From Dehalococcoidia bacterium (lineage in GTDB: Bacteria > Chloroflexota > Dehalococcoidia > Plut-88900): 64,000 nucleotides of DNA. Shown piece after piece: positions 2,057 to 49,288 of this stretch. A model generated the notes under the pieces. That model worked only from the letters and a program-made list of their open reading frames with translations, was not told the DNA's origin and made no database searches. Position 1 is the stretch's first letter. The number at the start of each line of letters is the position of its first letter. The translations under genes were made by a program, and so were the position numbers. The DNA lies in contig CBDBLV010000002.1 in the NCBI GenBank assembly GCA_965207225.1, forward strand, positions 320,001-384,000. The letters run 5' to 3'.

Positions 2057-2913
2057 GCAGTATTTACGTCCTCGGGGCCGGCACCCCGACCCCTACCCCT
2101 GACCGCTTCGGCTCTTCCTTCGTCGTGGAAATCAACGGCCAGCACATCATGTTCGACTGCGGCCCCGCCGCTACCCACAAGCTGGTGAAGGCCGGACTAT
2201 GGCCGACCCAGATAGACCACCTCTTCTTCACCCACCACCATTTCGATCACGACATCGATTACCCGTGCTTACTGCTGTGCCGCTGGGACCAGGGCGCGGG
2301 CCGTGACAACCAGCTCAAGGTCTTCGGCCCGACACTGACCGAGTCCATAACCGAGAAGATCATTGGTGAGAACGGTGCCTTTGCCCACGACTGGAAAGCC
2401 CGTGTCAATCATCCTGTTAGCCGGCAGGTCTACGTCAACCGCGGAGGAACCCTCCCGAGGAGGCCACCAAAGGTCGACGCCAGGGACGTGGGCCCCGGAA
2501 CGGTGTACACGGGCCCCGACTGGGAAGTCACCGCTGCGCCCGCTGAGCACGTCCAGCCCTGGCTCGACTCCCTGGCGTACCGGCTGGAGACGCCCTCCGG
2601 GAGCATCGTGTTTACTGGAGACACCCAGCCCTGTGATTCCGTGAGGGAGCTGGCAGCCAACGCCGACACTCTACTCTGCATGTGCTGGGACGACCAGGAC
2701 GTCATGAACGAAAACGGCGAGCACGTCGGGCAGTGCGGGACCACGGGTGCGGCAAAGATGGCGAGGGATGCGGGGGTGAAGAGGCTGGTCTTGGTCCACA
2801 TGGGCCCCGGACTTTCCGGCAACGAGGCCATGGCGAAGGCCGAGGCTGACGTGAGGGACATATTCCCCGGGGAAGTCATCTTCTCCGAAGAGCTGATGTC
2901 GATCCCCTTCTAG
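2053..2913 (+). CDS. MBL-fold metallo-hydrolase (RNase Z/arylsulfatase-like)
   Basis: LGAGTP, FDCG, THHHFDH, FTGDT, LVLVH motifs; ATGA overlap with SDR. Confidence 0.88.
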   Translation: MSSIYVLGAGTPTPTPDRFGSSFVVEINGQHIMFDCGPAATHKLVKAGLWPTQIDHLFFTHHHFDHDIDYPCLLLCRWDQGAGRDNQLKVFGPTLTESITEKIIGENGAFAHDWKARVNHPVSRQVYVNRGGTLPRRPPKVDARDVGPGTVYTGPDWEVTAAPAEHVQPWLDSLAYRLETPSGSIVFTGDTQPCDSVRELAANADTLLCMCWDDQDVMNENGEHVGQCGTTGAAKMARDAGVKRLVLVHMGPGLSGNEAMAKAEADVRDIFPGEVIFSEELMSIPF

Positions 2914-4199
2914 GCCGTCGGCGCAACTGCCTCCACCGCCACTCCCCGGATGTACATGCCTCTCGTCCTCTTCTCCAGGGCAGTCAAAACCACGAATGCG
3001 ATAAACCCACCGGCGGCCACCGACAGCACCCACTCGGGGCCGAAACGGTCACCCAGCGCTCCGTTGCCGAAGTTGGCGAAGGACATGATCCCTGCAGCAT
3101 GCAGGATGTAGATGCTCGTCACCCGACCCCTTATCCCGTCCGGTACCACCGATTGGATGAGTATCGACGACAGGATCATAAAGCCCGCCTGCGATGCGCC
3201 CATGAAGGCGGTGGCCAGCATGGCGAGAGGAAGGGTTGGGGCAAAGGCCAGTCCAAGGGGGCTGATCCCACTGACAATGCCGTTGATTAGCAGTAAGCGG
3301 CCCCTTCGGTGGGGTGTCGAGAGGGGGGCAATGACCAGCGAGATCAGGAGCGCCCCTATGCCGATCGTCACGTTCATCATGCTGACGCCGAAGGCATCTG
3401 TTTCGAGCTTGGTCTCGGAGATGACGGGGAGGAGGGACTCGAAGGACATGACGAGGGCACAGTGGAAAATGACCAGGGCAAAGACCCGAACCAAGACGGG
3501 GTGCCGGTAGGCGTAGATGAAACCCTCGGCCAGGTTGCGCAGGTGTCCTCTCGCCGATTCGATTACACCCGTGGACCGGGTGTCGATTCGCAGTACCAGC
3601 GTAATCGCTATGACGTACGCAATTCCGGCTATGACGAAGGCCCACCCGATGTCGAGCAGGGCCAGCACGGGCGCTATCGCTCCCGGCCCCAGGGCCCGTG
3701 TCCCGTGAAAGGCCGCATTCACGAGGGCGTAGGCGTTCACCAGATCTCTTCTCGGGACGAGGTTGGCTGTCAGGGATTCCAGGCCCGCCACCTGGGTTGC
3801 CATGGCGCTGCCGGTGACGAAGGCTATGACGACCAGATGCCAGATCTCGATGATGCCGAGGAGGGCGAGGACTGCGGTGGCGGCGTGGATGATGATCTGG
3901 AACCCCATGGCCCAGGCCAGCAGGTCCCGACGCACCATCCTGTCGGCGAGGAATCCGGCGAATACGGGCACCAGGACGTAGGGGATCATGGCGGCGAAGA
4001 TGACCAGCCCCGCCGAGGCGCTGGGGTTGTTCTCCGCCAGGTCGTAGGCGAGCCAGCCGCGGGCCACGATTACGGCCCAGGCCCCTCCGTCGGCGGCGAG
4101 GGCGGCGAACCAGAGGTGGCGAAAGTCTCGGTGGCTGAGGGCGGGAAGGAATCGGGTCTTGGCGACGTCTACCGCATTCCGGCCCGAGAGCGAACTCAT
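2910..4199 (-). CDS. MFS transporter
   Basis: About 12 hydrophobic segments, GFLADRMVRR motif A, RGRVTSIY; start placed at ATG 4199, 7 nt after a TATAAT. Confidence 0.9.
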   Translation of the reverse strand: MSSLSGRNAVDVAKTRFLPALSHRDFRHLWFAALAADGGAWAVIVARGWLAYDLAENNPSASAGLVIFAAMIPYVLVPVFAGFLADRMVRRDLLAWAMGFQIIIHAATAVLALLGIIEIWHLVVIAFVTGSAMATQVAGLESLTANLVPRRDLVNAYALVNAAFHGTRALGPGAIAPVLALLDIGWAFVIAGIAYVIAITLVLRIDTRSTGVIESARGHLRNLAEGFIYAYRHPVLVRVFALVIFHCALVMSFESLLPVISETKLETDAFGVSMMNVTIGIGALLISLVIAPLSTPHRRGRLLLINGIVSGISPLGLAFAPTLPLAMLATAFMGASQAGFMILSSILIQSVVPDGIRGRVTSIYILHAAGIMSFANFGNGALGDRFGPEWVLSVAAGGFIAFVVLTALEKRTRGMYIRGVAVEAVAPTA

Positions 4200-4206
4200 G
4201 GGCCGC

Positions 4207-4212
4207 ATTATA
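4207..4212 (-). promoter_or_regulatory. -10 box TATAAT, probably producing a leaderless MFS mRNA
   Basis: Minus strand reads TATAAT-gcggccc-ATG with no Shine-Dalgarno. Confidence 0.5.
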
Positions 4213-4248
4213 GACCTTTGGGGCGGGGCGGTGTGCCGGCGGCACCTA

Positions 4249-5010
4249 GATATTCAGTTGTGGGGTTTCGGTTTGGTCTGGTTTTGGAGGGGTCGGCGAT
4301 GGAAGACGCACCTGGTGAGCCGGTGGCCTCCACTCTGATGCGGTGATCCGGCTGTCGGGGGCCATGGAGGTCCGCCGTGGGCGGATTGCAGCCGGCCGCG
4401 CCCTAGCGCTCGATGTGTGCCCCGGTTGTCCGGGCAGACAAGCCGGGCCTTGACCCGCTCCCAGGCGCCCTTAGGGCGCAGCGGGGGCCAGTGATCGGGC
4501 GGGTGGCCCCCGGGAGTTTCTTATTACGTGGCGCACCCGCAGGTCTCGAGTGCCCCAGCGACCCCAGGTTGTGCTTGATTTGGTGGGGCGCAAGCTCGCC
4601 GACGGGCCAACCACCGGTAACTTGTCCGGAGCGGGGCTAGCCAGCCCGCCACCCCTATCTTGATATAGCGCAAGTTCGCTACAGACCAACCTCCGAGACG
4701 GTCTCTCGGCGGGGGGTGGCCGGTCTGCTTTGGCTTCTATCCAGGGCGTCTTTCCATCGCCTGACTACCAGGGAAGGGGGCACGGGACCCGTGAAGATGA
4801 GGAGATGGCGCTTTTCGCTTGTGCCGCAACCTTCCTGCCTCGCATGGGGGGCGATTGGCCGGTCGCCCCTACAAGAGAGGGGAGAGGTATTGGGATGGGC
4901 TAGGGCGTTGAGTCCCCCGATTTCTCGGGGGCGATGCCTTGGGTCGGGTCTCGGGGGCTTCCCTGGGTTTTTGGTTCCTCCTTAAATTACTGAATATCAG
5001 TTCGAACTAT
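4249..5010 (-). ncRNA. Candidate large structured non-coding RNA (~750 nt), family not recognised
   Basis: No ORF over 90 aa; 10-bp end helix 4249-4258/4989-4998; long helices 4292-4321/4732-4765 and 4768-4776/4958-4966; G-U pairs and a GAAA tetraloop only on the minus strand; promoter directly upstream. Confidence 0.55.
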
Positions 5011-5015
5011 GAAAC

Positions 5016-5043
5016 AGTTTAGCACGGGTGTAATAGAAGTCAA
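5016..5043 (-). promoter_or_regulatory. Sigma70-type promoter TTGACT-N16-TAAACT with TGn extension
   Basis: Minus strand TTGACT tctattacacccgtgc TAAACT; homologous to promoter at 47907-47934. Confidence 0.6.
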
Positions 5044-5730
5044 GGGCTTTTGGGCGCGGGTTTTGGGGGGAATACCCCCCAACCCCCCCGGGGGAACCCT
5101 CACCCCCTTTATCCCCCTCTCCCTTAGGGCCTATAAGGGAGAGGGGGAGGAAAAAACAGAGGGAAGCGCCTGCGCCATGGCGCAGGCGCTTCCCTCTAGT
5201 TTGGTACTGGGGAGAAAAGAAGGAAAGAAAAAACGGTCGAGATGGATGTGCAGCGTCAACGTCTGCCTTTAGTTCAGTACTGGGGAGGAGGGGATTCCGG
5301 GTCGGGGGTAGGGATGATGGGGGTGAGTGGGGTCAGGGTACCCACTAGGGGCACCCCTACAGGGAAGGAGAAGGGGCGGGAAGAGTGCCCTTCCCAACCC
5401 CTCCGGAAATAATATGAGTCCCGCCCACCCGCCCTGTTTTATTGACATATCAAAAATGCACTGCATTTTTGATATGTCTTTGCCAAGGGGGAAGACGGAA
5501 AGGGGTGAGAGTGGCAATGAGTAGGGTGCACTTAGGGAGGGGTGCTGGAGATCCCTCGCGGGGCCTCGGGATGACATAGAGGGGTGCGGTTTGGTGATGG
5601 AAGAATGCGAGAATCCGTAGATGCGTGGGCCACCCACCGCCCCAGGGCGACCCGCCGGTCGCCCCTACGGGGAACAGAACCAGGCTTGGTTCCGGGGATG
5701 GACCCCCGATCGAGGGAGGGAAACGCAGGT
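5030..5730. repeat. Composite palindromic-repeat mosaic, copy 1
   Basis: CCCTCACCCC..GGGAGAGGG hairpin 5097-5148; perfect 40-bp palindrome 5158-5197 with AGTTTGGTACTGG tail; GTAG-type REPs 5335-5360 and 5644-5668; AT-rich hairpin 5444-5478; GTCATCCC-type repeat 5547-5577. Confidence 0.85.
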
Positions 5731-5746
5731 GGGGCTGGAATCTCGT

Positions 5747-5775
5747 TTGAAGCGGTGTGGGATGGGGCTTATACT
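5747..5775 (+). promoter_or_regulatory. Sigma70-type promoter TTGAAG-N17-TATACT
   Basis: Near-consensus boxes with 17-nt spacer, ~40 nt upstream of the TTG at 5813. Confidence 0.5.
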
Positions 5776-5812
5776 CCGGGCTTGCCGGTCGGGGGCCGGG
5801 AGAGGGAATGAA

Positions 5813-6514
5813 TTGATAGACCTGATAGATATTTTGGAGTCGTTTAACCGGAAGGAGCGGTATTTTCTGCTAGTGCAAGCCTTGGGGCTCCAGACCGAAG
5901 AAGGTGGTGCCGGGTTTAAATTAGAAGCGAGTTTCCGGAAATTACTCAAGGAAAGACTGTCCTGTGGTAAAACGAGAATAGATATCCCTTCTAACGCCTA
6001 CGTTGCCATGGACTATCACCTAAACTGGATTGCTGCTGCTCTTGCCTTAGCGAGAGGAGAAGAAAACGTCCGAAATGAACTGTTTGAGCAAAGTCAAGAA
6101 GACATAGACTTCTTGATCGCATTTCAAGAGTCAGATGGCCCTTACCACCTTGTTTTCTTAGAGGCTAAGGGCTTTTCTAGCAATCCATCTGAGCTTTCCA
6201 CTAAGGCGCAATTGTTCAGTCACTTCACGAAAGGTCAATTGGAGTCCAAAGTCAATAGACTTAACAATATTTTCAAAGCTCACGCGGACAAACGACCCCG
6301 GGTTATCCCCCACTTTTGTCTGATGTCGGGATATAAGCAGAGAAATTTCGAATCTCTACCCTCTCTCGTGGGAACAAATGAAGAGCAAATTCGGGCTGCT
6401 TGGTTGAAACTAGAAGCGCCAAAAACAAGGCGTGTAGTGAGATTTCCTGAAGATGGGGTGCGGATTGACGAAGTCAAGCTAAAAGCCGTGAATAAGGAGC
6501 CTTCATTTGACTAA
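5813..6514 (+). CDS. Hypothetical protein, possible PD-(D/E)xK nuclease fold
   Basis: Lower GC than flanks; EDIDFLIAF...LVFLEAKG pattern; TTG start after GGGAGAGGG; the upstream ORF extension is repeat DNA. Confidence 0.6.
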   Translation: MIDLIDILESFNRKERYFLLVQALGLQTEEGGAGFKLEASFRKLLKERLSCGKTRIDIPSNAYVAMDYHLNWIAAALALARGEENVRNELFEQSQEDIDFLIAFQESDGPYHLVFLEAKGFSSNPSELSTKAQLFSHFTKGQLESKVNRLNNIFKAHADKRPRVIPHFCLMSGYKQRNFESLPSLVGTNEEQIRAAWLKLEAPKTRRVVRFPEDGVRIDEVKLKAVNKEPSFD

Positions 6515-7712
6515 CAACACCGCCGAAGCCGTAGTAATAGGCGCGGGGATTGTGGGAACCAGCATCACCCACTATCTCGCGGAGAAGGGGGTGAAGGCGA
6601 CGCTGGTTGAAAAGGATTCTGTCGCGGGAGGGGCCACGGGCAAGGCCACGGCGGTTGTCCGGATGCACTACACGAACCCGTGGGACTCGACGATGGCGAG
6701 GATCGGCGGGGAGGTGTATTCGAACTGGTCGGATTTGATCGGCGGGGAGAGTGGCTTTGTTAACTCAGGGTTCGTATTTATAGTCGGGGAGCAGGAGAAG
6801 GAGAAACTGCACAAGAACGTGGAGATTCTCCGGGAAGAGGCCGGCATCAACACCTGCGCCCTCGACCCCGACGCCCTCCAGGAGCTCCTCCCCAACTGGT
6901 ACGTAGGCGATGTAGGCGCCGCCGCCTACGAACCCGACAGCGGATATGGCGACCCCCACTCCGCCGCCACGGGGTTCGCTCACCGGGCCCAGGAGCTGGG
7001 AACAGAGGTCTCCCAGGGCGAGGAAGTCTTGCGAATTCTGGAAGAGGGTGGCCGGGTCACGGGCGTCGAGACCAGCAAGAGGACAATCTCGACTGACACC
7101 GTAGTCCTCGCGGGAGGGGCCTGGTCAAGGGAACTGGGTAAAACCGTAGGCATGGACCTGCCGATAAACGGAATGCTCCTCTCCGTTGGCGTGCTCAAAC
7201 GCCCCGAGGTACTCCACGGCCCCCACCCCGCCTGCATCGACGCCGCCAACGGAATTTACTTCAGGCCCGAGCCCGGCAACCTTACACTACTCGGATTCAG
7301 CAGCGTCGTTGACCGCCACGAGTCGCCGGAAGACCTTGATCCCGACAACTATGACGCCGAGCCCGACATGCGCTGGTCCCTGCGCACCAGCCGCAGGATC
7401 GCCTCCCGCATTCCCGCCATGGAAGACGCCACATGGGTCCGTTCATGGAGCGGCGTTGATGGCAACACACCGGATGGCCACCTCATCCTGGACCGAGCCC
7501 CGGGCGTCGAGGGCCTGTACCTCGCCGTAGGGATGAGCGGCACGGGATTCAAGGTCGGGCCGGCCGTGGGCAAGTGCATGTCTGAGCTTATTGTCGACGG
7601 TCGGGCCTCCAGCGCGGACATAACTCCATTCAGGCTCTCCCGCTTCGAAGAGGGCGAAACGCTGGTAGGAAAGCACGAATACAACTATTATCTCTTCAAG
7701 CAGGATGAATAA
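6507..7712 (+). CDS. FAD-dependent oxidoreductase (DAO/sarcosine oxidase beta-like)
   Basis: VIGAGIVG FAD motif, TPDGHLILD, GMSGTGFKVGP. Confidence 0.9.
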   Translation: MTNNTAEAVVIGAGIVGTSITHYLAEKGVKATLVEKDSVAGGATGKATAVVRMHYTNPWDSTMARIGGEVYSNWSDLIGGESGFVNSGFVFIVGEQEKEKLHKNVEILREEAGINTCALDPDALQELLPNWYVGDVGAAAYEPDSGYGDPHSAATGFAHRAQELGTEVSQGEEVLRILEEGGRVTGVETSKRTISTDTVVLAGGAWSRELGKTVGMDLPINGMLLSVGVLKRPEVLHGPHPACIDAANGIYFRPEPGNLTLLGFSSVVDRHESPEDLDPDNYDAEPDMRWSLRTSRRIASRIPAMEDATWVRSWSGVDGNTPDGHLILDRAPGVEGLYLAVGMSGTGFKVGPAVGKCMSELIVDGRASSADITPFRLSRFEEGETLVGKHEYNYYLFKQDE

Positions 7713-28308: not shown

Positions 28309-28382
28309 TGGCTGGGGAACCAGGATTCGAACCTGGGCTTACGGATCCAGAGTCCGCTGTCCTACCACTAGACGATTCCCCA
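28309..28382 (-). tRNA. tRNA-Gln(CTG)
   Basis: Minus strand TGGGGAATCGTCTAGTGGTAGGACAGCGGACT-CTG-GATCCG...GGTTCGAATCC...CCAGCCA with encoded CCA. Confidence 0.96.
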
Positions 28383-49211: not shown

Positions 49212-49288
49212 GGCGCATTCGTCTAGCGGCCTAGGACACCGCCCTCTCAAGGCGGAGATCACGGGTTCGAATCCCGTATGCGCTACCA
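49212..49288 (+). tRNA. tRNA-Glu(CTC)
   Basis: GGCGCAT acceptor stem, CCGCC-CT-CTC-AA-GGCGG anticodon arm, GGTTCGAATCC, encoded CCA. Confidence 0.96.

What the first reader, a model, noticed from the sequence alone, without database searches (positions are those of the whole stretch)
4249..5010. Candidate novel ~750-nt structured RNA with its own promoter and paired ends
Seen in sequence: no credible ORF; a TTGACT-N16-TAAACT promoter starts a minus-strand transcript near 5009. Its 5' GATATTCAGT (4989-4998) is perfectly complementary to the 3' end (4249-4258), and GGAGG/CCTCC (4977-4981/4286-4290) pair next. Two closed domains follow: I, 4768-4776/4958-4966 extended by 4783-4791/4945-4953, containing CCCCCGA-GAAA-TCGGGGG (4914-4931); II, a ~28-bp bulged helix 4292-4321/4732-4765 enclosing many hairpins (4348-4395, 4420-4448, 4455-4484, 4676-4681 region, 4693-4709). 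Helices CAGACCGGCC/GGTTGGTCTG and CCGGTGGTT/GGCCACCGG (4609-4617/4320-4328) each need two G-U pairs, which exist only on the minus strand and would be A-C on the plus strand. Inference: a large ncRNA in the size class of OLE/ROOL/GOLLD. I recognise no RNase P, tmRNA, SRP, 6S or intron signatures.
Basis: partly seen in the sequence, partly recalled or inferred. Interest (0 to 1): 0.85.

Follow-up and report, generated by a model that had tools for sequence, protein, structure and literature searches.

The report
Multicopy self-promoted structured RNA repeat
This stretch is one of more than forty scattered copies of a gene-less, strongly folding element that carries its own promoter and was found only in one genus of Dehalococcoidia bacteria, so it is a new repeat family and not a unique giant RNA gene.

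Summary
No Rfam family matches. The locus is not unique, however. The genome holds 41 copies by profile search (48 by a looser motif scan), each 350-1270 nt long. All 8 congeneric genomes also carry many copies. A covariance model found none in 145 other Dehalococcoidia genomes. Every copy has the same plan: its own sigma-70-type promoter (three sequence classes), a roughly 27-nt leader, an invariant AAGGAGG element, domain I closed by helix P1, a near-invariant helix P2 (GGCGAUGGAA/UUCCAUCGCC) around a swappable domain II (at least 25 sequence types), and a C/A-rich tail. Copies are present or absent at orthologous sites and are recombinant mosaics. I saw no terminal inverted repeats, no target duplications and no partner transposase. 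The "paired ends" occur in 1 of 155 copies. Contigs from RNA libraries contain the element. My best reading is a lineage-specific dispersed family of self-promoted non-coding RNA units of unknown role. A selfish DNA repeat is the main rival. Covariation support is modest and does not decide the strand.

The parts
5157..5198 (-). Upstream intrinsic-terminator-like hairpin (19-bp stem followed by a T run). It belongs to a separate high-copy small repeat and lies just upstream of the element.
   Evidence: terminator scan. One search shows many genome-wide matches to window 5154-5215.
5016..5043 (-). The element's own sigma-70-type promoter, TTGACT-N16-TAAACT (class A).
   Evidence: A TTGAC -35 box with a -10-like hexamer at the same distance is present in 41 of 41 G000 copies by eye and in 142 of 155 copies by pattern. 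There are three sequence classes (12 A, 18 B, 11 C in G000, read).
4984..5009 (-). Class-specific leader of about 26 nt. The transcript start near 5009 is inferred.
   Evidence: Leaders differ between promoter classes. Loose ends of RNA-library contigs read into a leader upstream of the AAGGAGG element (table 7).
4977..4983 (-). Invariant Shine-Dalgarno-like AAGGAGG with no start codon behind it.
   Evidence: Exact in 147 of 155 copies. The sequence is, and no ORF starts there.
4768..4966 (-). Domain I, closed by helix P1 (4966-4958 with 4776-4768). It holds optional inserted hairpins, for example 4931-4914 and the GTAGGGGCGACCGG...CGCCCC hairpin, and the conserved CCAUCUCCUCA stretch.
   Evidence: P1 over 88 distinct copies is 92.5% paired, and 4 of its 8 pairs show a change on both sides. 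The GGGAAG:CUUCCC to GGGGAA:UUCCCC variant is seen.
4741..4761 (-). 5' strand of helix P2 (GGCGAUGGAAAGACGCCCUGG).
   Evidence: The outer 9-10 bp are nearly invariant in all copies and in a second family. There are 9-15 uninterrupted pairs in most of the 155 copies.
4316..4740 (-). Domain II of 'type c'. It is a swappable module with two (three in some copies) similar sub-units, each a long G-U-rich hairpin followed by a small GCGARCUURCGC hairpin and AUAUCAAG.
   Evidence: Only 5 G000 copies share this type. There are 33 copies in 8 of the 9 genomes and at least 25 sequence clusters of domain II overall. Contigs from RNA libraries cover 4290-4763.
4295..4315 (-). 3' strand of helix P2 (CCAGGUGCGUCUUCCAUCGCC).
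   Evidence: helix 7: 99% of cells paired.
4251..4294 (-). Unstructured C/A-rich tail ending in the conserved CCCCACAACUGAAUA. This is the sharp 3' limit of the repeat.
   Evidence: Tail composition over 155 copies is A 44%, C 39%, G 11%, U 7%, and the end motif was found in 139 of 155.

Best explanation
The region is one copy of a genus-restricted, dispersed repeat family. The repeated unit is a complete transcription unit for a non-coding, highly structured RNA.

Each unit carries its own strong sigma-70-type promoter. The RNA begins with a short leader and an invariant single-stranded AAGGAGG element. It then folds into domain I (closed by helix P1) and a long, sequence-invariant helix P2 that closes an exchangeable domain II. 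It ends in an unstructured C/A-rich tail.

Copies are gained and lost at intergenic sites just upstream of host promoters. Recombination between copies reshuffles their promoter class, domain I inserts and domain II.

Shown: the architecture, the copy number, the restriction to one genus among the genomes searched, promoter conservation across diverged classes, the presence/absence mosaic, and the presence of the sequence in RNA libraries.

Inferred: the sense RNA is the selected product. The 5' AAGGAGG binds 30S subunits and shields the RNA from the 5' exonuclease RNase J, and it may titrate ribosomes. The C-rich, G-poor tail acts as a Rho loading site that ends most transcripts before the downstream gene. 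The cellular role of the RNA is unknown.
For: Multicopy. The query gave 80 BLAST matches in its own genome. Two-round nhmmer resolved these into 41 loci of 361-820 nt, and a looser motif scan gave 48.

Genus-restricted among the genomes searched. BLAST matched 8 of 8 congeners, 0 of 3 other genera of the family, and 1 weak hit among 29 other families. Covariance model R1 matched 5 of 5 congeners sampled and 0 of 145 other Dehalococcoidia genomes. The exact 28-mer in 185,579 species genomes occurred only in 'Dehalococcoidia bacterium' MAG records: 80 of the 86 matching stretches are listed, on eight records, one of which (DAOUKX010000158.1) I did not place in any genus.

Promoter function is kept while its sequence diverges. 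In G000, 41 of 41 copies have a TTGAC -35 box and a -10-like hexamer, in three different classes with different leaders. Over all copies, 142 of 155 match the pattern. The same domain II type occurs behind all three promoter classes.

The scaffold is conserved around variable cargo. AAGGAGG is exact in 147 of 155 copies, P2 has 9-15 uninterrupted pairs, and domain II falls into at least 25 clusters, none of them inverted.

Structure. The window copy has z = -5.79. Twelve representatives of 12 domain II clusters have a mean sense z of -5.05 against -1.88 for the antisense strand, and the sense value is lower in 12 of 12. In the type-c alignment, 97.9% of cells are paired. There are 86 cells with a change on both sides against 31 in shuffles (0 of 500 shuffles reach this), and 11 such pairs against 3-6 when partners are slid. 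P1 shows 8 pairs with a change on both sides against 4.1 in shuffles (1 of 500).

RNA. Contigs of two metatranscriptomic libraries from one study cover 4290-4763 and 4946-4982. Their loose ends run on into a sister-copy leader and a sister-copy tail.

Orientation. The first downstream ORF of at least 200 aa is co-directional in 31 of 40 loci, using crude ORF calls.

No coding capacity.

The host has Rho and RNase J. Ribosomes bound at a strong SD block RNase J1 in B. subtilis (PMC5737220; abstract seen in the listing).
Against: The strand is not settled by covariation. RNAalifold on the reverse complement of the same alignment gives 113 pairs, 13 of them with two Watson-Crick types. The sense strand gives 123 and 11. 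Over the union of both pair sets, sense G-U cells (514) and A-C cells (594) are about equal.

The z-score asymmetry may partly reflect composition, because shuffles of the G-rich antisense strand fold well.

Most pairs never vary or vary on one side only.

RNA-library contigs show neither strand nor ends, and they may include DNA.

Only 9 of 155 copies are followed within 110 nt by the terminator-type repeat, so most copies have no recognisable terminator.

Domain I contains small hairpin repeats that also occur elsewhere in the genome. That is typical of mosaic selfish repeats.

Presence/absence polymorphism between close species fits a mobile element as well as it fits a gene family.

No function, target or protein partner was found. 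CsrA and Hfq are absent.
Confidence: 0.55

Rival explanations
1. A selfish, non-autonomous mobile DNA repeat that is MITE-like or a mosaic of nested palindromic repeats. On this reading the secondary structure is a by-product of inverted repeats, the transcripts are incidental, and copies look conserved because they arose recently.
For: High copy number with 75-93% identity between copies. Copies are present or absent at three orthologous loci: MFS filled in 4 of 9 genomes, nusA in 4 of 9, leuS in 8 of 9. The build is mosaic, with small hairpin modules that also occur elsewhere. P2 is a perfect 10-15-bp inverted repeat around variable cargo. Covariation is equally good on both strands. The family is confined to one genus among the genomes searched.
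Against: There are no terminal inverted repeats: a leader-tail run of 8 bp or more occurs in 1 of 155 copies. No target duplication was visible at the three compared loci, and the junctions are replaced or blurred. The genome has no Y1 transposase and no TnpB. All four RT genes belong to group II introns and lie away from the copies. No recurrent neighbouring protein was found. Three diverged promoter classes all keep the -35 and -10 boxes and their spacing, which points to selection for transcription. No domain II is inverted.
Confidence: 0.25
2. A movable promoter-plus-leader cassette that acts in cis. It would drive or modulate the co-directional downstream host gene, with P2 as an RNase III processing site. 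This is how Correia elements work in Neisseria.
For: The downstream gene is co-directional in 31 of 40 loci. Copies end 40-180 nt before start codons of housekeeping genes such as uvrA, glnS, rpoB, nusA, leuS and gyrB (names read from N-terminal sequences, not tested). They abut the -35 box of the host promoter at nusA and leuS. Most copies lack a terminator. Correia elements provide promoters and RNase III sites (PMC2649163; abstract seen in the listing).
Against: The downstream genes keep their own promoters, which are also present in genomes without the element. An example is the TATAAT 7 nt before the MFS ATG in all 9 genomes. The downstream genes are unrelated in function. 9 of 40 copies face the other way or have no co-directional gene. 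Some copies are followed directly by a strong terminator repeat. A 350-1270-nt structured leader without an SD before a leaderless gene is unlikely to help translation (inference).
Confidence: 0.12
3. A unique large ornate ncRNA gene comparable to OLE, ROOL or GOLLD.
For: The size, the strong fold and the private promoter. No ORF.
Against: The genome holds 41-48 copies, and every congener holds dozens. There is no Rfam match. None was found outside one genus among the genomes searched. The middle domain is exchangeable.
Confidence: 0.02
4. An mRNA for a small protein or a type I toxin. The strong SD and the 5'-3' fold-back would resemble hok mRNA.
For: A perfect AAGGAGG near the 5' end. In this copy the ends pair and the SD pairs with CCUCC.
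Against: No ATG, GTG or TTG lies within reach of the SD. No ORF is conserved, and the copies differ by indels that are not multiples of three. The fold-back occurs in 1 of 155 copies.
Confidence: 0.02

Closest known systems
Correia repeat enclosed elements (CREE/NEMIS) of Neisseria
   Same: Dispersed intergenic repeats that carry promoter activity, form an RNA hairpin that RNase III can bind, and sit next to host genes (PMC2649163; abstract seen in the listing).
   Different: Correia elements are about 100-155 bp (recalled). They are defined by terminal inverted repeats and make promoters at their ends. The present units are 350-1270 nt, have no terminal inverted repeats (1 of 155), carry a complete upstream promoter in every copy and have a swappable middle domain. 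There is no sequence relation.
BOX elements of Streptococcus pneumoniae (boxA-boxB-boxC modules)
   Same: A modular build from exchangeable sub-units, high copy number, an intergenic position, predicted stable RNA structure and transcription (PMC3049150; start of abstract seen in the listing; the modular details are recalled).
   Different: BOX elements are much shorter and have no promoter of their own as a rule (recalled). The two have different sequences, occur in different phyla and share no scaffold.
HEARO / omega RNAs of IscB-TnpB elements
   Same: Large structured ncRNAs that occur in many copies per genome, some without the ORF (recalled; Weinberg et al. 2010, PMC2864571, seen only as a listing).
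   Different: No Rfam HEARO match. The genome has no TnpB-type or Y1 transposase gene. IscB itself was not searched.
OLE, GOLLD and ROOL large ncRNAs
   Same: The size class (hundreds of nt), many helices and an unknown or only partly known function.
   Different: Those are one or a few genes per genome, conserved across genera with strong covariation (recalled). Here there are dozens of copies, found in one genus only among the genomes searched, with weak covariation and no match to the Rfam models.
5' Shine-Dalgarno-type RNA stabilisers of Bacillus (hbs, cryIIIA)
   Same: A strong SD near the 5' end, used without (or before) translation, that lets a bound ribosome block the 5' exonuclease RNase J1 (PMC5737220; abstract seen in the listing). 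The host here has RNase J.
   Different: This is only a mechanistic analogy for one motif. It was not tested here, and in 110 of 155 copies an internal UCUCCU could mask the motif.

Membership tests
Rfam large ncRNAs (OLE, GOLLD, ROOL, HEARO, raiA and all other Rfam 15 families) | A match to the family covariance model at its gathering score. | tested here: not met
   The window at gathering score gives only two tRNAs elsewhere. At E<=10 over 4100-5700 there is nothing inside 4249-5010. Forty further loci, 39 of them holding G000 copies and one a G006 copy, give only tRNAs and a 5S rRNA in the flanks.
Rfam large ncRNAs (OLE, GOLLD, ROOL) | One or a few genes per genome, conserved across genera. 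| tested here: not met
   41-48 copies. Found in one genus only among the genomes searched.
Group II intron (including ORF-less derivatives) | A domain V/VI catalytic core detectable with RF00029; an intron-encoded RT nearby or related. | tested here: not met
   No RF00029 hit in the element. As a positive control, RF00029 scores 62.2 bits beside a real intron RT in the same genome. Model R1 finds nothing at the four RT loci.
MITE | Terminal inverted repeats at the element ends. | tested here: not met
   A leader-tail complementary run of 8 bp or more occurs in 1 of 155 copies. Mean runs are 3.8-4.6 bp against 3.1-4.0 with shuffled tails.
MITE | Target-site duplication flanking each copy. | tested here: inconclusive
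   None was seen when filled and empty orthologous sites were compared at the MFS, nusA and leuS loci. The junctions are not clean. Only three loci were compared, and by eye.
MITE | Many dispersed copies with insertion polymorphism. | tested here: met
MITE | A related autonomous element with a transposase that shares the ends. | tested here: inconclusive
   No recurrent neighbouring ORF family. No Y1 transposase or TnpB. Other transposase families were not searched.
IS200/IS605-type derivatives (PATE, omega-RNA carriers) | A Y1 transposase or TnpB in the genome. | tested here: not met
   PF01797 and PF07282 give 0 matches in a genome that is 92.3% complete. IscB itself was not searched.
Retron | An ncRNA next to a retron-type RT. 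| tested here: not met
   All four RT ORFs have intron maturase and HNH domains or sit beside an RF00029 hit. None lies at an element copy.
Type I toxin mRNA (hok-like) | A small toxin ORF behind the SD; conserved 5'-3' fold-back. | tested here: not met
   No start codon behind AAGGAGG. No conserved ORF. Fold-back in 1 of 155 copies.
Free-standing ncRNA gene | Its own promoter. | tested here: met
   41 of 41 and 142 of 155.
Free-standing ncRNA gene | A defined 3' end or terminator. | tested here: inconclusive
   The sequence limit at the tail end motif is sharp (139 of 155). However, a terminator-type repeat follows only 9 of 155 copies. Rho-dependent ending is inferred from the composition of the tail.
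Free-standing ncRNA gene | A transcript detected on the predicted strand. | tested here: inconclusive
   Contigs of two RNA libraries hold the sequence. Strand, ends and DNA carry-over cannot be judged from contigs.

The most novel reading that the evidence does not exclude
One genus of Dehalococcoidia maintains a superfamily of 40 or more independently promoted, modular large ncRNA genes per genome, together with a second family that shares helix P2. Each would combine a conserved scaffold (an exposed AAGGAGG, P1 and the invariant P2) with one of at least 25 interchangeable domain II modules. The RNAs would then act in trans. They might work as 30S/anti-SD-binding RNAs with module-specific partners, or they might spread through their own transcripts, as a bacterial counterpart of a SINE-like RNA gene family.
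Probability: 0.2. Interest if true: 0.85.

Novelty: new variant of a known kind. Interest (0 to 1): 0.55.

Why it matters
If the sense RNAs are real and abundant, this is an unusually large and numerous family of bacterial non-coding RNAs. It has dozens of genes, makes up about 0.7% of a 4-Mb genome, and combines a fixed scaffold with exchangeable domains. That would offer a natural system for studying how structured RNA modules are shuffled.

If the element is instead selfish DNA, it is a repeat type without the usual hallmarks. It has no terminal inverted repeats, no target duplications and no partner transposase, yet every copy brings a strong promoter next to housekeeping genes. That bears on the annotation and transcription maps of these uncultured bacteria.

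In either case the family should be masked or modelled in ncRNA screens. Taken alone, any single copy looks like a novel giant RNA.

Tried and rejected
Rfam. Gathering score on the window, E<=10 on 4100-5700 and gathering score on 40 further loci holding copies gave nothing in the element. The weak hits at 5050-5210 (ylbH and miRNA models) fall on the upstream hairpin repeats and are far below gathering score.

Strand test. Counting G-U against A-C cells on RNAalifold structures of both strands did not separate the strands.

Inverton idea. P2 could act as inverted repeats for a DNA invertase, but there are 0 minus-strand matches of at least 150 nt among 155 domain II sequences.

IS200/IS605, TnpB and retroelement partners. 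No Y1 transposase and no TnpB. The four RTs are group II intron proteins unlinked to copies.

Protein-sponge ideas. No CsrA and no Hfq in a genome that is 92.3% complete.

Recurrent neighbour genes. The clusters found are short ORFs that look like read-throughs of the repeats (my reading, not checked) plus a few small paralogue groups. None is a candidate partner, and the downstream genes are unrelated.

Cover by RNA-library contigs. The MFS gene next to the element has little or no cover in runs X15 and X20, while the DNA run of the same study covers both.

Habitat. Runs labelled 'sponge metagenome' hold about a fifth or less of the sampled words.

The weak BLAST hit in G038 (E = 5.9e-4) was not examined.

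Literature. Four searches for a description of such an element in Dehalococcoidia, Chloroflexi or sponge-associated bacteria, or of multicopy large bacterial ncRNAs, returned nothing relevant. Papers outside the held library, and all supplements, were not seen.

Full report
THE OBSERVATION.

I read window 3900-5400 on the minus strand. The region lies in a gap of about 1.4 kb between two ORFs. One is an MFS transporter gene at 2910-4208 on the minus strand (Pfam MFS_3/MFS_1). The other is an unannotatable ORF at 5621-6514 on the plus strand, with no Pfam or PADLOC hit.

- The promoter scan finds one sigma-70-like site in 4100-5300. It is TTGACT at 5043-5038, a 16-nt spacer, then TAAACT at 5021-5016 on the minus strand. 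Shuffles give 0.2 expected sites.
- The 762-nt minus-strand RNA folds to -338.1 kcal/mol against -295.9 +/- 7.3 for 20 dinucleotide shuffles, z = -5.79. The plus strand gives z = -3.32.
- The only minus-strand ORFs inside are 72, 49 and 41 aa.
- No Rfam family matches at gathering score or at E<=10 inside the region.

The observation therefore stands.

IT IS NOT A UNIQUE LOCUS.

BLAST of the 762 nt against the window's own genome (G000; 4.03 Mb, 5 contigs) gave 80 matches. Two rounds of nhmmer with the 5' part, the middle and the 3' part gave 53, 8 and 31 hits respectively. These resolve into 41 loci of 361-820 nt. A looser motif scan later gave 48.

Only five copies share the window's middle part. 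The others have different middles between the same 5' and 3' parts.

ANATOMY OF THE FAMILY.

In RNA sense each copy has seven parts.

1. Promoter. All 41 G000 copies have a TTGAC -35 box and a -10-like hexamer at the right distance. They fall into three sequence classes with different spacers, -10 boxes and leaders. Read by eye, these are 12 class A (as in the window), 18 class B and 11 class C. Over 155 unique copies from nine genomes, 142 fit a TTGACN-N15-19-TWHNHT pattern.
2. Leader. A class-specific leader of about 27 nt.
3. SD-like element. AAGGAGG is exact in 147 of 155 copies and is followed by AACCAAAAACC, with no start codon.
4. Domain I. It is closed by P1 (CAGGGAAG with CUUCCCUG) and has an inner GACCC/GGGUC hairpin. 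Optional inserted hairpins bring the distance from leader start to P2 from about 96 to over 330 nt.
5. Helix P2. The outer 10 bp, GGCGAUGGAA/UUCCAUCGCC, are almost invariant. The inner continuation differs by type but stays complementary (GGUCC/GGACC against GACGC/GCGUC).
6. Domain II. It is 198-1041 nt long including P2 and falls into at least 25 sequence clusters, with no inverted member.
7. Tail. It is 42-61 nt long with A 44%, C 39%, G 11% and U 7%. It ends in CCCCACAAC(U/C)GAA(U/C/G)A in 139 of 155 copies. This is the sharp 3' limit at window position 4251.

A second family of 6-7 copies has a different 5' part but the same P2.

The window's 'type c' domain II contains two (three in some copies) similar sub-units: a long G-U-rich hairpin, a small GCGARCUURCGC hairpin and AUAUCAAG.

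- P1, P2 and the promoter are family features.
- The terminal pairing is not. A leader-tail run of 8 bp or more occurs in 1 of 155 copies, the window copy.
- CCUCC at the start of the tail occurs in 50 of 155 copies.
- An internal UCUCCU in domain I that could pair with the AAGGAGG occurs in 110 of 155 copies. RNAalifold pairs it with the AAGGAGG.

DISTRIBUTION.

- BLAST found the family in 8 of 8 genomes of the same genus. It found none in the 3 other genera of the family (80-94% complete). It found one weak hit (E = 5.9e-4, not examined) among 29 other families of the class.
- A covariance model of the short 5' core (alignment A2 of 8 copies; R1 has 121 positions and 19 pairs) matched G000 and 5 of 5 congeners sampled. 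It matched 0 of 145 other Dehalococcoidia genomes, which span 110 genera in all, and 108 of the 151 genomes scanned are at least 90% complete. Matches per genome are capped at 23 scored candidates, so copy numbers elsewhere are lower bounds.
- The exact 28-mer beginning at the AAGGAGG occurs in 86 stretches among 185,579 species genomes. The 80 listed lie on records titled 'MAG: Dehalococcoidia bacterium'. The eighth, DAOUKX010000158.1 (isolate S8_365), I did not place in any genus.

The family was therefore found in one genus only among the genomes searched.

GAIN, LOSS AND RESHUFFLING.

I fetched the orthologous genes downstream of three copies from all nine genomes.

- MFS (this window). 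The element is present in G000, G002, G003 and G006. It is absent in G008, G007, G005, G001 and G004. In those five genomes only about 110 nt separate the MFS gene from the divergent FAD-oxidoreductase gene (window 6507-7712; Pfam DAO). G000 has 2.3 kb there instead: the element, small repeats and ORF 5621-6514.
- nusA. Present in G000, G008, G005 and G007, absent in five genomes.
- leuS. Present in eight genomes, absent in G001.

Copies at the same site differ in promoter class, domain I inserts and domain II type, even between the closest genomes. At nusA, G000 and G008 have flanks that are 96% identical, class C against class B promoters, and an identical 3' half. In G000 the type-c domain II sits behind promoters of all three classes. 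This is a recombining mosaic.

I saw no target duplication at the junctions. The sequence between the flanks is replaced rather than duplicated. Only three loci were inspected, and by eye.

At nusA and leuS the inserted block reaches right up to the -35 box of the host promoter. The host promoters also exist in the empty genomes.

The first downstream ORF of at least 200 aa is co-directional in 31 of 40 loci. These are crude ORF calls, and some opposite-strand ORFs look spurious. The downstream genes are unrelated housekeeping genes. Their names (uvrA, glnS, rpoB, nusA, leuS, gyrB and others) are my reading of N-terminal sequences, not tested.

STRUCTURE AND STRAND.

Thirty-three type-c copies from eight of the nine genomes were aligned (A1).

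- RNAalifold gives 123 pairs, 11 of them with compensatory changes.
- Counting on that structure, 97.9% of cells are paired. There are 86 cells with a change on both sides against 31.3 in shuffles (0 of 500 reach this). There are 11 such pairs against 8.0 in shuffles (13 of 500), and 3-6 when partners are slid.
- For the 5' core, 92 matches (88 distinct rows) aligned to R1 give 90.7% paired cells and 8 pairs with a change on both sides against 4.1 (1 of 500). P1 alone is 92.5% paired. That alignment is fitted to the model, which favours the structure.

Support is real but modest, as expected for a young family.

The strand question is not settled by covariation. RNAalifold on the reverse complement predicts 113 pairs, 13 with two Watson-Crick types. 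Over the union of both pair sets, sense G-U cells number 514 and A-C cells 594.

A different measure does favour the promoter strand. For 12 representatives of 12 domain II clusters, the sense z-score is lower than the antisense z-score in 12 of 12, with means of -5.05 against -1.88 (14 dinucleotide shuffles each). The copies share the scaffold, so they are not independent. The G-rich antisense strand also has well-folding shuffles, so part of this asymmetry may be compositional.

EXPRESSION.

Of 22 listed public runs that hold part of the sequence, two are metatranscriptomic libraries from one study. I laid them together with a DNA run of the same study and the best DNA holder.

RNA-library contigs cover 4290-4763, for example a 429-nt contig over 4341-4763 with 17 differing letters, and also 4946-4982. 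Their loose ends continue into a class-B-like leader just upstream of the AAGGAGG and into the AAAACCCAAC tail variant. They therefore also derive from sister copies.

Contigs give no strand, ends or level, and RNA libraries can contain DNA.

SEARCHES FOR A PARTNER OR A KNOWN CLASS.

- No recurrent neighbouring protein.
- No Y1 transposase (PF01797) or TnpB (PF07282) in the genome.
- PF00078 finds four RT ORFs. Two have RT, intron maturase and HNH domains. The other two are identical to each other, and one lies beside an RF00029 hit of 62.2 bits. That hit also serves as a positive control showing that the element is not a group II intron. R1 finds nothing at these loci.
- CsrA and Hfq are absent.
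- Rho and RNase J are present.

INTERPRETATION.

The best-supported reading (about 0.55) is a lineage-specific dispersed family whose unit is a self-contained transcription unit for a structured non-coding RNA. The strongest argument is that promoter function is conserved across three diverged promoter and leader classes, and across the second family, while the scaffold (AAGGAGG, P1, P2, tail) is kept around freely exchanged cargo.

How it works is inferred, not shown:

- The 5' AAGGAGG would bind 30S subunits and protect the RNA from RNase J, as strong SD elements do in Bacillus (PMC5737220, abstract only). It may titrate ribosomes.
- The C-rich, G-poor unstructured tail fits what I recall of Rho loading sites.
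- The long P2 helix is a plausible RNase III substrate.

The main rival (about 0.25) is a selfish DNA repeat with incidental transcription. A cis-acting promoter/leader cassette in the manner of Correia elements (PMC2649163, abstract only) is a further rival (about 0.12). These readings are not mutually exclusive.

COMPARISON AND NOVELTY.

The element works most like the transcribed interspersed repeats of other bacteria: Correia elements and the modular BOX elements (PMC3049150, start of abstract only). In copy number and size it resembles HEARO-type mobile ncRNAs (recalled).

It fails the defining tests of each class I could test:

- no Rfam model match;
- no terminal inverted repeats;
- no visible target duplication;
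- no partner transposase or RT.

Four literature searches found no description of it. The held library is incomplete, and supplements were closed.

I therefore rate it a new variant of a known kind, namely dispersed, transcribed, structured intergenic repeats. There is a minority chance that it is a truly new kind of multigene RNA family.

LIMITS.

- All RNA evidence comes from assembled contigs of one study.
- Covariation is weak.
- Junction analysis covers three loci.
- Copy counts outside G000 come from fetched pieces, not whole genomes.

Noticed in passing
window 5154-5215 (also 5062-5150): Two small high-copy repeats lie upstream of the element. One is a 19-bp-stem hairpin followed by a T run that scores as an intrinsic terminator (5198-5157, minus strand). 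The other is a G-rich hairpin (GGGAGAGGGGGAUAAAGGGGGUGAGGGUUCCCC...). One search lists well over a hundred matches to window 5050-5225 across the genome. The terminator repeat also follows some element copies directly.
   Followed up: partly
window 5392-5671: This stretch is also repeated. It occurs twice in locus L002 (G000 C1) and once in L009 (G008) at 79-86% identity.
   Followed up: no
window 5621-6514 (+): A 297-aa ORF with no Pfam or PADLOC match. It lies inside the 2.3 kb that G000 has between the MFS and FAD-oxidoreductase genes, where five congeners have only about 110 nt. A D...E.K-like motif suggested a nuclease fold to me. I did not test this.
   Followed up: partly
G000 C3:167338-167671, C3:255817-256144, C5:1005090-1005533, C5:1189898-1190341, C5:1330728-1331061, C5:1737129-1737462: A second repeat family of 6-7 copies. 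It has its own promoter-like sequence and a different 5' part carrying AAGGAG followed by ATG, but the same GGCGATGGAAGG...CCTTCCATCGCC helix around a domain of 340-450 nt. Whether the open frame behind its ATG is real was not tested.
   Followed up: partly
G000 C1:66970-70074: One element copy is interrupted by about 2.6 kb carrying two opposite-strand ORFs of 264 and 526 aa. This is probably an insertion sequence. It was not characterised.
   Followed up: no
loci L030, L033, L039, L061, L064 and others, just after the tail: In 31 of 155 copies the tail is followed within 70 nt by a shared module of about 45 nt (AAAACCCGGYG...CCGAACGAGTACACC). The module ends at the -35 box of the downstream gene's promoter and is absent from the empty orthologous sites. 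It may be a terminator hairpin or a regulator site.
   Followed up: partly
L047 965-1082 (-) (G000 C4, downstream of copy C4:598806): A stand-alone 5S rRNA gene lies about 420 nt downstream of an element copy and is co-directional with it. tRNA genes lie near several other copies.
   Followed up: no
window 4208-4220 and orthologues: The MFS gene has TATAAT 7 nt before its ATG in all nine genomes. This suggests a leaderless mRNA.
   Followed up: no
G000 C2:158087-158773, C5:1548409-1549095, C5:1553608-1554405, C5:1671488-1672288: Four group II intron reverse-transcriptase genes, two of them identical.
   Followed up: partly
window 28312-28382 (-) and 49212-49285 (+): Two tRNA genes. These are the only Rfam matches at gathering score in the window.
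   Followed up: no
one search run list: Several DNA runs labelled 'sponge metagenome' hold a fifth or less of the sampled words of this stretch.
   Followed up: no
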